This document shows positions 15,447-17,921 of a DNA stretch of 34,385 bases, piece by piece. The notes below the pieces were generated by a model. The model searched no databases and was not told the origin of the DNA. It worked only from the letters and a program-made list of their open reading frames with translations. The position numbers and the translations under genes are program-made. Every line of letters begins with the position of its first letter. The first letter of the stretch is position 1. The stretch is taken from the UHGV virus genome UHGV-0351038. The stretch is one strand, 5' to 3'. Source of the stretch: a virus.

Positions 15447-17921
15447 ATGAGTAAAGTCTTTATTTGCGCCGCCATTCCTGACGAACAGGCAATTAAGGAA
15501 GAAGGTGCAGTTGCTGTAGCCACTGCCATCGAAGCTGGTGACGAACGCCGCGCCCGAGCCAAATTTACCTGGCAATTCCTGGAGCAATATCCGGCTGCTC
15601 AGGACTGTGCTTATAAATTTCTTGTCTGCGAGGATAAACCCGGCATGGCCCGCCCTGCCCTTGATTCCTGGGATACCGAATATATGCAGGAAAACCGCTG
15701 GGATGAGGGATCGTCTTCCTTTGTCCCGGTCGAACCAGAGCCGAATACAGAAATTGTTAACTTTAATCAGTTATCCGACGACAAACAGGCCGCTGTTCTC
15801 GTTAAGTTTGGCGCACATGAAAACGTCACCGTGGATATGGTCATCAACGCAAGCGGGCTTCTTGGCGATGACGACATGATGACCTTTGACGGACACCTCG
15901 CAGAGGCAATTATCCGGACTAAAGAAATTAACGCCATGTATCCGGAACGTCAGATTGAATACATCAACGATGCCAGACGTGATTTAAAACCAACCGCCAA
16001 ATGGCCCGACGTTCAGGCATATTTTCTCGACCGTAAAAAACGCATGGAAAAGGAGCGCAAAGAAGGTGGTGCATATGCTTCTGTTGTTGATCTTGCCCGT
16101 GCCAGCGTCAACCGGCAGAACACTGAAAACTCAGTAGCAAAAATCAACCCTGTCACTACTGCCATTCGTCGCGAATACAAGCAGACATGGAAAACACTGG
16201 ATGATGAACTGGCCTATGCTCTGTGGCCTGGGGACATTGATGCCGGAAACATTGACGGCAGCATCCATCGCTGGGCAAAAAATGAAGTTATCGACAACGA
16301 CCGCGAAGACTGGAAGCGTATCTCGGCATCAATGCGCAAACAGCCTGATGCCCTTCGCTACGACCGCCAGACTATTTTTGGCCTTGTCCGTGAACGTCCG
16401 ATCGACATTCACAAAGACCCTGTGGCACTGAACAAATACATTACTGAATACCTGACTACAAAGGGCGTGTTTGAAGATGAAGGAAGAAATCAGAGCGCAA
16501 CTGATACTCTCTCGTCGCCAGTACCAGAAACTGATGCAGTGGAAACGGCAATTCCGGACAACGAAAAAACCGAATGCAAAGTGGAAATCGAACCATCTGT
16601 AGAGCGTGAGGGGCCGTTCTACTTCCTCTTCACCGACAAGGATGGCGAAAAATACGGTCGCGCAAACAAACTTTCTGGTCTGGATAAGGCACTGGCTGCC
16701 GGGGCTACTGAAATCACGAAAGAAGAATATTTCGCCCGCAAAAACGGTACATACTCAGGTTCACAACAAAATACTGGTGCATCTGACACGACCGCACAAC
16801 CAGAGCCGGTAAAAGTTACCGCTGACGAAGTAAACAAAATTATGCAGGCAGCCAATATCAGCCAGCCTGACGCCAATCAGCTGCTTGCAGTATCACGTGG
16901 TGAATTTGTTGCAGGGATTAGCGACCCGAACGATCCGAAATGGGTGAAGGGGATTGAAACCCGCGATTCTGTGAACCAGAACCAGCAAGAAACGGAACAG
17001 AACGACCAGAAAGCGGAACAAAACAGCCCAAATGCGTTACAAAACGAGCCAGAAACGAAACAACCTGAGCCAGTAGCGCAACAGGAAGCGGAAAAAGTCT
17101 GCACCGCCTGTGGTCAGACCGGCGGCGGCAACTGCCCTGATTGTGGTGCGGTGATGGGCGACGCAACATACCAGGAAACATTCGATGAAGAGAATCAGGC
17201 TGAAGTTCAGGAAAATGATCCGGAGGAAATGGAAGGCGCTGAACATCCACACAAGGAGAATGCTGGCAGCGCTCAGGACCACGCCAGCGATAATGAAACT
17301 GGCGAGACGGCAGATTCCTTAATTGCGGTGAACGGTCATCACGTTATCACATCCACCAGCAGAGTGTGGCACCATCTGATGATCGACCTTGAAACGATGG
17401 GAACAAATCCTGATGCGCCAATCAACTCTATTGGCGGTAAATTCTTTGATCCCGAAACCGGAGAGATGGGGCCGGAATTTAGCAAGACCATCGATCTGGA
17501 TACTGCTGGCGGAGTCATTGATCGTGACGTCATTAAATGGTGGCTTAAGCAATCACGCGAGGCGCAATCTGCCATTCTGACCGATGAAATCCCGTTAGAT
17601 GATGCACTACTGCAATTGCGGGAATTTATCGACGAAAACTCCGGTGAATTTTTTGTTCAGGTCTGGGGAAATGGAGCCAACTTCGACAACGTGATTTTAC
17701 GCCGTTCATACGAACGGCAGGGGATCCCCTGCCCGTGGCGTTATTGCAACGATCGCGATGTGCGCACAATCGTTGAGCTGGGAAAAACCCTGAACTTCGA
17801 TGCCAGAACGGATATTCCATTCGACGGTGAGCGCCACAATGCACTTGATGACGCCCGTTACCAGGCAAAATACGTTTCAGCTATCTGGCAAAAACTGATC
17901 CCGAGTCAGGCTGATTTTTAA
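15447..17921 (+). CDS. RecE-like large protein (824 aa) with C-terminal DEDDh-type 3'-5' exonuclease motifs
   Basis: Middle region (LLAVSRGEFVAGISDPNDPKWVKGIETRD) matches recalled RecE; C-terminus has Exo I MIDLETMG, Exo II WGNGANFDNVIL, Exo III HNALDDARYQAKY; a CxxC...CPDC motif precedes it. Confidence 0.65.
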   Translation: MSKVFICAAIPDEQAIKEEGAVAVATAIEAGDERRARAKFTWQFLEQYPAAQDCAYKFLVCEDKPGMARPALDSWDTEYMQENRWDEGSSSFVPVEPEPNTEIVNFNQLSDDKQAAVLVKFGAHENVTVDMVINASGLLGDDDMMTFDGHLAEAIIRTKEINAMYPERQIEYINDARRDLKPTAKWPDVQAYFLDRKKRMEKERKEGGAYASVVDLARASVNRQNTENSVAKINPVTTAIRREYKQTWKTLDDELAYALWPGDIDAGNIDGSIHRWAKNEVIDNDREDWKRISASMRKQPDALRYDRQTIFGLVRERPIDIHKDPVALNKYITEYLTTKGVFEDEGRNQSATDTLSSPVPETDAVETAIPDNEKTECKVEIEPSVEREGPFYFLFTDKDGEKYGRANKLSGLDKALAAGATEITKEEYFARKNGTYSGSQQNTGASDTTAQPEPVKVTADEVNKIMQAANISQPDANQLLAVSRGEFVAGISDPNDPKWVKGIETRDSVNQNQQETEQNDQKAEQNSPNALQNEPETKQPEPVAQQEAEKVCTACGQTGGGNCPDCGAVMGDATYQETFDEENQAEVQENDPEEMEGAEHPHKENAGSAQDHASDNETGETADSLIAVNGHHVITSTSRVWHHLMIDLETMGTNPDAPINSIGGKFFDPETGEMGPEFSKTIDLDTAGGVIDRDVIKWWLKQSREAQSAILTDEIPLDDALLQLREFIDENSGEFFVQVWGNGANFDNVILRRSYERQGIPCPWRYCNDRDVRTIVELGKTLNFDARTDIPFDGERHNALDDARYQAKYVSAIWQKLIPSQADF

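What the first reader, a model, noticed from the sequence alone, without database searches (positions are those of the whole stretch)
15447..17921. RecE-like protein carries a DEDDh 3'-5' exonuclease-type C-terminus, with no RecT partner
The middle of the 824-aa protein matches recalled RecE sequence, but the C-terminal about 180 aa has the three Exo motifs of DnaQ/RNase T-like exonucleases (MIDLETMG; WGNGANFDNVIL; HNALDDARYQAKY), not the PD-(D/E)XK 5'-3' nuclease expected for RecE. No RecT/Bet-like annealase follows; xis comes directly after. A cysteine pair (CTACGQTGGGNCPDCG) precedes the nuclease domain. This looks like a domain swap giving a different recombination or nucleic-acid processing activity.
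Basis: partly seen in the sequence, partly recalled or inferred. Interest (0 to 1): 0.55.

Follow-up and report, generated by a model that had tools for sequence, protein, structure and literature searches.

The report
RecE-scaffold protein with DEDDh exonuclease
This prophage gene encodes a protein that keeps the non-catalytic front and middle of the RecE recombination nuclease but carries a 3'-to-5' DnaQ/DexA-type exonuclease at its end; it is intact, conserved and very common in E. coli, already catalogued in databases, and apparently never studied.

Summary
ORF 15447-17921 (+) encodes 824 aa. Residues 642-814 are a complete Rv2179c-like DEDDh 3'-5' exonuclease domain (Pfam E=2e-63) with all five catalytic residues. 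Residues 263-627 match the non-nuclease part of Rac RecE. There is no PD-(D/E)XK domain. xis and int follow directly, and no annealase was found in the window or in 80 related loci.

The gene is not rare. The identical protein is in NCBI as "exonuclease" or "3'-5' exoribonuclease". The DEDDh module is found in 4067 of 5426 complete E. coli genomes, against 1736 for the K-12-type RecE nuclease. K-12 ydfE (Qin prophage) is its IS2-truncated remnant. All 81 copies examined are intact, with dN/dS about 0.2.

The closest solved relative by sequence is the T4 DexA DNA exonuclease. Most likely this is an early-operon enzyme that trims DNA 3' ends. That function is inferred, not shown. Interest is moderate.

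The parts
15447..17921 (+). Gene for the 824-aa scaffold-DEDDh exonuclease. It is the intact counterpart of the K-12 Qin pseudogene ydfE and belongs to PHROG 2082. The identical protein is annotated WP_021538002.1 ('exonuclease') in strain AR_0017.
15447..16220 (+). N-terminal module, residues 1-258 (PHROG 5943). It is not the RecE PF06630 domain. AF2 pLDDT is above 90 for residues 1-220. No informative PDB fold match was found. It is 68% identical to K-12 YdfE.
16221..17336 (+). Middle scaffold shared with RecE, residues 259-630. It has confident helical (245-345) and small beta/alpha (388-435) domains, followed by a long acidic, predicted-disordered stretch.
16881..17324 (+). Block of about 90% nucleotide identity to K-12 recE. 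It ends at a sharp mosaic joint near 17325 (codons for residues 625-627).
17100..17144 (+). Cys4 zinc-ribbon-like motif, C552/C555/C563/C566. It is also present in RecE and conserved in 68-69 of 69 variants. AF2 models it with low confidence.
17370..17888 (+). DEDDh (DnaQ-like, Rv2179c/DexA-type) 3'-5' exonuclease domain, residues 642-814. The catalytic residues are D647, E649, D747, H797 and D802.
13072..13479 (+). DicA-like HTH repressor at the head of the leftward early region. It faces a cro-like gene (12764-12994, minus strand).
15090..15323 (+). kil (FtsZ inhibitor), the gene immediately upstream on the same strand.
17991..18242 (+). Excisionase gene, 69 bases downstream of the exonuclease stop codon.
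18262..19557 (+). Tyrosine integrase gene.
19592..19609 (.). Overlap between the attR-side and attL-side matches to strain AR_0017. This is the attP core region (about GAAATCCATAAT).

Best explanation
The gene encodes a modular early protein of a Qin/Rac-type lambdoid phage. It has an N-terminal module of unknown function, a middle scaffold homologous to the non-catalytic part of RecE (including its Cys4 motif and acidic linker), and a C-terminal DEDDh two-metal-ion exonuclease that removes nucleotides from 3'-OH ends. It arose by mosaic recombination in the linker, which replaced the RecE-type PD-(D/E)XK 5'-3' nuclease. All of this is shown by sequence. It lies between kil and xis in the leftward early region, the position that recE-recT holds in Rac. 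It would therefore be made on induction or infection rather than in the lysogen (inferred from gene order). The most likely role is processing of DNA 3' ends during phage replication or recombination, with the scaffold supplying targeting and the DEDDh domain supplying catalysis. This role is inferred. Examples would be trimming 3' tails or flaps, or resecting in the 3'-5' direction. Because the phage has no annealase, it is not a self-contained RecET/Red-type two-component recombinase. It must act alone, with host recombination proteins, or with functions of co-resident prophages (inferred).
For: Identity and swap.

Functional gene:
- 81 of 81 copies are intact at 823-830 aa, giving 69 distinct proteins.
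- E649, D747, H797 and D802 are present in 69 of 69, and D647 in 66 of 69.
- dN/dS is 0.17-0.27 in every module.

DNA rather than RNA:
- A profile of this subfamily hits T4 DexA (PDB 8kel, deposited as an exodeoxyribonuclease whose title refers to DNA catalysis) at E=8e-19 over the whole domain.
- The M. tuberculosis chain 4hec, which I take from memory to be Rv2179c, is not reached at E<=1.

Recombination context:
- The same scaffold is fused elsewhere to the RecE nuclease.
- In one representative (P0080) the RecE-type N-module and part of the scaffold run into a RecT sequence. This may be an artefact.
- The gene sits in the same slot as recE.
- A RusA resolvase gene is present in the same phage.

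No annealase.
Against: - No activity, substrate or phenotype has been measured.
- The Pfam family is named after an RNase (Rv2179c acts on 3' overhangs of dsRNA, as described in PMC10534295), and NCBI often names this protein '3'-5' exoribonuclease'.
- DEDDh enzymes switch easily between RNA and DNA substrates.
- Stand-alone homologues in other phages show no consistent linkage to annotated recombination genes.
- The AF2 model of the nuclease domain is only moderately confident, at pLDDT 50-80.
- Sak4- and Gp2.5-type annealases were not screened by sequence. They are excluded only by the absence of such names in the PGAP annotation.
- No role of 3'-5' resection in lambdoid phage recombination is known to me. 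A 3' exonuclease could just as well be anti-recombinogenic.
Confidence: 0.6

Rival explanations
1. It is an RNA exonuclease. It might process or degrade phage or host RNAs during lytic growth. Alternatively it might act as a prophage-borne antiviral nuclease against RNA phages, in the manner of the ISG20-like 'TONDO' exonucleases, which also combine a DEDDh domain with variable auxiliary domains.
Against: By sequence, the closest solved relative is the DNA exonuclease DexA, not an RNase. PF00929, the RNase_T/ISG20 family, scores only E=0.057, below its cut-off. Every other effector found on this scaffold is a DNA recombination protein. The gene lies in the early operon between kil and xis, not in a lysogen-expressed defence locus. 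The TONDO candidates drawn from BLAST hits were limited to proteins under 500 aa, and the preprint does not show them to be homologous to this family.
Confidence: 0.2
2. It is a host-takeover or counter-defence nuclease rather than a recombination enzyme. It might remove 3' ssDNA tails so that the host RecBCD/RecA or RecF pathways cannot act on phage DNA. It might instead destroy a DNA component of a host defence system, such as retron msDNA.
Against: This is speculation with no direct evidence. The scaffold's association with annealases and RecE favours a positive role in recombination.
Confidence: 0.12
3. It is a decaying chimeric remnant in cryptic prophages with no present function.
For: The K-12 copy (ydfE) is a pseudogene cut by IS2. 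Many carriers are probably defective prophages.
Against: 81 of 81 copies are intact. dN/dS is about 0.2 in all modules and the catalytic residues are conserved. The window itself carries an attP junction, meaning an excised or circular phage form.
Confidence: 0.03
4. It is a canonical RecE with a PD-(D/E)XK nuclease, and the DEDD-like motifs are coincidental.
For: None beyond the shared middle region. Some records label it 'exonuclease VIII'.
Against: PF12684 (DUF3799) is absent here but is found in K-12 RecE with the same search. PF16473 scores E=2e-63 over the full profile length. BLASTP finds no similarity to RecE residues 593-866.
Confidence: 0.01

Closest known systems
RecE (exodeoxyribonuclease VIII) of the Rac prophage, E. 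coli K-12
   Same: It holds the same position in the leftward early region, downstream of kil and upstream of xis/int (Rac has racC upstream and recT, ralR, rcbA downstream of recE). The middle region is homologous (window residues 263-627 to RecE 278-592). This includes the Cys4 motif and acidic linker, with about 90% nucleotide identity over the last 440 bases or so.
   Different: The C-terminal PD-(D/E)XK 5'-3' nuclease (PF12684) is replaced by a DEDDh 3'-5' exonuclease. The N-terminal PF06630 domain is replaced by an unrelated module. No recT follows.
T4 DexA (exonuclease A; PDB 8kel/8ken)
Rv2179c of M. tuberculosis (founder of Pfam PF16473)
   Same: It belongs to the same Pfam family, with a full-length match at E=2e-63, and has the same DEDDh fold.
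YdfE (b1577), Qin cryptic prophage, E. coli K-12
   Same: It is the same gene family in the same prophage type, with the same integration site (ydfJ). It is 68% identical over residues 1-257. The neighbours match: dicA, ydfA, ydfB and a dicB fragment.
   Different: The K-12 copy is truncated by IS2 after about 257 matching residues, so it lacks the scaffold end and the nuclease. No functional literature was found.
Pectobacterium phage ZF40 gp07 and PHROG 2489 ('exonuclease')
   Same: It has the same N-terminal module and scaffold start (24% identity over window residues 3-336, E=2e-15). It holds the same position, three short genes upstream of xis/int.
   Different: Its C-terminus is a predicted Rad52-fold annealase, not a nuclease. 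It is followed by a Gp157/Gam-like gene.

Membership tests
RecE / exodeoxyribonuclease VIII (NCBIfam NF007259) | C-terminal PD-(D/E)XK 5'-3' nuclease domain (Pfam PF12684/DUF3799) | tested here: not met
   There is no PF12684 hit at E<=0.1. The same search finds it in K-12 RecE at E=4e-28. BLASTP finds nothing against RecE residues 593-866.
RecE / exodeoxyribonuclease VIII (NCBIfam NF007259) | Whole-protein score above the curated equivalog cut-off | tested here: not met
   The score is 275 bits against a cut-off of 1269, and only profile positions 264-602 of 877 match.
RecE / exodeoxyribonuclease VIII (NCBIfam NF007259) | N-terminal Exonuc_VIII domain (PF06630) | tested here: not met
   It is absent here. 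It is present in RecE and in the sibling protein of phage vB_EcoS-689R5, which also ends in a DEDDh domain.
RecE / exodeoxyribonuclease VIII (NCBIfam NF007259) | Homologous non-catalytic middle region with the Cys4 motif | tested here: met
   Residues 263-627 align with RecE 278-592 at E=2e-61. The last 440 bases or so are about 90% identical at the nucleotide level.
RecET / Red-type two-component recombinase (exonuclease plus annealase) | Adjacent single-strand annealing protein gene (RecT, Bet, Erf or Rad52-like) | tested here: not met
   xis follows after 69 bases. tblastn with six partner families gives zero hits in the window and 80 related loci. The PGAP annotation of the twin prophage shows none. 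Sak4 and Gp2.5 were not screened by sequence.
DEDDh (DnaQ-like) 3'-5' exonucleases, Pfam PF16473 Rv2179c-like | Score above the gathering threshold over the whole profile | tested here: met
   213.6 bits against 27, E=2.2e-63, profile positions 1-177 of 177.
DEDDh (DnaQ-like) 3'-5' exonucleases, Pfam PF16473 Rv2179c-like | Exo I (DxE), Exo II (D) and Exo III (Hx4D) catalytic residues | tested here: met
   D647/E649, D747 and H797/D802 are present. These columns are invariant across 8 diverse phage homologues. In 69 close variants they are 66-69 of 69. They align with the DexA motifs.
DEDDh (DnaQ-like) 3'-5' exonucleases, Pfam PF16473 Rv2179c-like | RNase H-like exonuclease fold | tested here: met
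   [not shown]
DEDDh (DnaQ-like) 3'-5' exonucleases, Pfam PF16473 Rv2179c-like | Metal-dependent 3'-5' exonuclease activity, and the substrate (DNA or RNA) | not testable with these tools
   This needs enzyme assays.
ISG20-like antiviral exonucleases (TONDO; preprint PMC13344964) | Membership of the ISG20/RNase_T sequence family (PF00929, cd06127 lineage) | tested here: inconclusive
   PF00929 scores E=0.057 and 14.4 bits against a cut-off of 24. It is the same fold superfamily but a different family.
ISG20-like antiviral exonucleases (TONDO; preprint PMC13344964) | Defence-type genomic context or protection against RNA phages | tested here: not met
   The context is the early operon between kil and xis. 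The phenotype is not testable here.

The most novel reading that the evidence does not exclude
The non-catalytic part of RecE may be a general adaptor that enterobacterial temperate phages combine with interchangeable DNA-end effectors. Those seen here are a 5'-3' PDDEXK nuclease, a 3'-5' DEDDh nuclease, a Rad52-fold annealase and at least one unidentified module. The DEDDh form is the most widespread in E. coli. It would define an uncharacterised, annealase-independent, 3'-5' end-processing route in lambdoid phage recombination or replication. It would also finally give the long-unexplained RecE N-terminal region a testable function, namely targeting.
Probability: 0.3. Interest if true: 0.7.

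Novelty: new variant of a known kind. Interest (0 to 1): 0.4.

Why it matters
RecE/RecT is a workhorse of recombineering. Yet the N-terminal two-thirds of RecE is still described as having unknown function, even though full-length RecE is needed for efficient linear-linear recombination (review PMC11611040).

This gene shows that the same scaffold is reused with a nuclease of opposite polarity. Relatives reuse it with a Rad52-fold annealase. That points to the scaffold as a targeting platform and offers natural module swaps for testing what it does.

The DEDDh form is present in about three quarters of complete E. coli genomes, often in several copies. Its activity could therefore influence prophage induction, prophage-prophage recombination and mosaicism in pathogenic E. 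coli.

It also exposes annotation problems. 'Exonuclease VIII' and 'exoribonuclease' labels are applied to this protein, and an 'exonuclease' label is applied to a probable annealase (PHROG 2489).

The gene and its domain content are already in public databases, so the novelty lies in interpretation, not discovery.

Tried and rejected
- **Literature.** Searches for Rv2179c+phage, PF16473, DUF5051, RecE+DEDDh+prophage, ydfE+Qin, RecE-like+lambdoid and Rad52-like/Sak4/RecE found no study of this protein family. Lopes et al. 2010 mentions neither such a fusion nor a 3'-5' nuclease. The founding Rv2179c paper is not held.
- **Promoter and terminator scan of 12700-19800.** It found fewer or no more sites than in shuffled sequence, so it is uninformative.
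- **Neighbourhoods of stand-alone homologues** (N15-like YDC107_1, YeP2, Redjac, Enc34, PAE1, a Vibrio phage). These are mostly hypothetical genes with no recurrent partner.
- **Rejected readings.** A coincidental-motif reading and a pseudogene reading were rejected; see the rival explanations.

Full report
**Observation.** The ORF at 15447-17921 (+) is real and encodes 824 aa, with a GAGG ribosome-binding site upstream of the ATG. The four quoted motifs lie at residues 645-652, 740-751, 797-809 and 552-567.

Pfam places residues 642-814 in PF16473, the Rv2179c-like 3'-5' exonuclease family. The match covers the whole profile (1-177 of 177), at E=2.2e-63 and 213.6 bits against a cut-off of 27.

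The NCBIfam RecE equivalog matches only residues 241-626, and only profile positions 264-602 of 877. It scores 275 bits against a cut-off of 1269. BLASTP against K-12 RecE aligns residues 263-627 with RecE 278-592 (E=2e-61). It gives nothing for the RecE nuclease domain. K-12 RecE itself shows PF06630 plus PF12684 in the same kind of search.

The Cys4 motif is present in RecE too. The excisionase gene starts 69 bases after the stop codon, and the integrase gene follows.

**Surroundings.** The window is 99.5% identical over 132-19609 to a prophage of E. coli AR_0017. PGAP annotates that region as follows:
- leftward early region: DicA-like repressor, ydfA, ydfB, sieB (opposite strand), a dicB fragment, kil, 'exonuclease', xis, int
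- divergent region: cro, ydaT, O, DUF977, NUDIX, HAD, hokD, rem, DUF968, RusA, Q, then lysis genes

This is the layout of K-12 Qin. There the gene in this position is ydfE, a pseudogene cut by IS2 and 68% identical to residues 1-257. It is also the layout of Rac, where the position is held by recE-recT.

No annealase is annotated. tblastn with RecT, Bet, Erf, two Rad52-like annealases, lambda Exo, Gam, Gp157 and the RecE nuclease domain gave no hit. That search covered the window and 80 related IMG/VR loci, each reaching up to 10 kb upstream and to the prophage end.

**The swap is a recombination joint.** Aligned to K-12 recE, the DNA is about 90% identical from about 16881 to about 17324. Identity is lost immediately after the codons for ETGE-AD, in the linker before the nuclease domain.

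**The scaffold family is modular.** A HMMER search of residues 1-640 against 1.84 billion representative proteins found 239 relatives. I examined 59 long ones plus the query (60 proteins).

Pfam found the following among them:

| Pfam family | Members |
|---|---|
| PF06630 (RecE N-terminal domain) | 25 |
| PF12684 (PDDEXK nuclease) | 14 |
| PF16473 (DEDDh exonuclease) | 9 |
| RecT | 1 |

Domain mapping shows all four combinations of two N-modules (this one, or RecE's PF06630) with two nucleases. The protein of phage vB_EcoS-689R5, for example, has PF06630 plus DEDDh.

About half of the long relatives had neither nuclease. Fourteen of them share a tail with the motif DGEAxKKSLTDAxKKALSxLGFSADV. 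The evidence on that tail is:
- Pfam gives only a sub-threshold Rad52_Rad22 hit (E=0.004).
- A profile search of PDB finds nothing.
- An AF2 model (pLDDT 83) has a three-stranded sheet plus helix core.
- Stand-alone homologues include a Pseudomonas phage protein annotated as a RAD52-like annealing protein. They are followed by a Gp157/Gam-like gene.
- Pectobacterium phage ZF40 gp07 joins this tail to the same N-module as the window protein. Three short genes separate it from xis/int.

A further tail (PHROG 26058) remains unidentified. The scaffold is therefore reused with several DNA-end effectors.

**The gene is functional and common.**
- All 81 copies examined are intact at 823-830 aa, giving 69 distinct proteins.
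- E649, D747, H797 and D802 are invariant. D647 is present in 66 of 69, with N in the other three.
- The four cysteines are conserved.
- dN/dS is 0.17-0.27 for each module.

The identical protein is in NCBI under 'exonuclease', '3'-5' exoribonuclease' or 'exonuclease VIII'. Its precomputed Pfam families are PF27430, PF16473 and PF27432. PHROG 2082 covers it end to end.

By megablast, DNA of the DEDDh module occurs in 4067 of 5426 complete E. coli genomes, in 8059 copies and up to 7 per genome. DNA of the K-12-type RecE nuclease domain occurs in 1736 genomes. Megablast sees only close relatives of each query, so diverged RecE types are not counted.

**Which kind of DEDDh enzyme.** A profile of the window domain plus seven phage homologues has the five catalytic columns invariant. 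Its hits in PDB are:
- T4 DexA at E=8e-19 over the whole domain, with the motifs aligned. DexA is deposited as an exodeoxyribonuclease, with a title referring to DNA catalysis.
- The CBASS-associated exonuclease Cap18, at E=9.5e-4.
- The M. tuberculosis chain 4hec is not reached at E<=1. I believe from memory, not from a tool, that 4hec is Rv2179c.

**Mechanism.**

Shown by sequence:
- a modular protein whose catalytic module is an intact DEDDh 3'-5' exonuclease
- attachment through a recombination joint to the RecE-type scaffold
- purifying selection
- location in the leftward early region, with no annealase in the phage

Inferred:
- expression on induction or infection
- a DNA substrate, based on the DexA relationship and on the other effectors found on the scaffold
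- a role in processing DNA 3' ends during phage replication or recombination, with the scaffold providing targeting

The main rival is an RNA-directed activity. That includes a defence role like the ISG20-like TONDO exonucleases, which also pair a DEDDh domain with variable auxiliary domains (PMC13344964). The family name, the NCBI label and the versatility of DEDDh enzymes keep this rival alive. A counter-defence or anti-recombination role cannot be excluded. The pseudogene and 'canonical RecE' readings are refuted.

**Comparison and novelty.** It works like a DexA/DnaQ-type exonuclease and is a member of PF16473. It is not a RecE: three of the four RecE features tested are not met, and the recT partner is absent too. 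It does share RecE's non-catalytic middle region.

I found no paper on this architecture, on ydfE function, or on the scaffold-annealase fusion in the held library. [quoted passage not shown]

What may be new is the modular picture and the prevalence of the DEDDh form. I rate it a variant of a known kind, of moderate interest.

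Noticed in passing
window 19558-19620 (junction), with 132-19609 and 19592-20785: The window is in excised or circular phage order. Bases up to 19609 match the int/attR side of the AR_0017 prophage. Bases from 19592 match its attL side, about 47 kb away in the chromosome (ydfJ::prophage, then sitA). The 18-base overlap contains the att core (about GAAATCCATAAT). None of 5426 complete E. coli genomes holds this int-sitA junction. The integration site is the same as that of K-12 Qin.
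   Followed up: partly
window 20044-23493: The sitABCD iron/manganese transporter operon lies between attP and the tail-fibre genes (23585-34385, minus strand). It is therefore cargo in the phage 'b region' and would be carried by the phage.
   Followed up: partly
window 1-134 and 5389-5522: The first 134 bases of the window are an exact inverted copy of 5389-5522, including a tRNA gene with a CAT anticodon. This is either a contig-end assembly artefact or a true inverted duplication. AR_0017 has only the internal copy in the stretch compared.
   Followed up: partly
[not shown]
   Followed up: yes
related proteins P0007, P0130, P0133, P0135, P0138: A fourth alternative C-terminal module on the same scaffold (PHROG 26058, conserved motif TYQQQLTIAALQGLCANPA) has no Pfam match and was not identified.
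   Followed up: no
related protein P0080 (703 aa): In one representative the RecE N-terminal domain and part of the scaffold run directly into a RecT sequence with no nuclease domain. This could be a real deletion fusion or a frameshift or assembly artefact.
   Followed up: no
window 15447-17921, residue 647: Three of 69 distinct variants have Asn instead of the first catalytic Asp (D647N) in an otherwise intact gene. These may be inactive copies.
   Followed up: no
window 9380-10686: HAD-family hydrolase and NUDIX hydrolase genes sit in the early-right region between the replication genes and hokD/rem. These are unusual passengers for this part of a lambdoid genome. They are identified only through the annotation of the twin prophage.
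   Followed up: no
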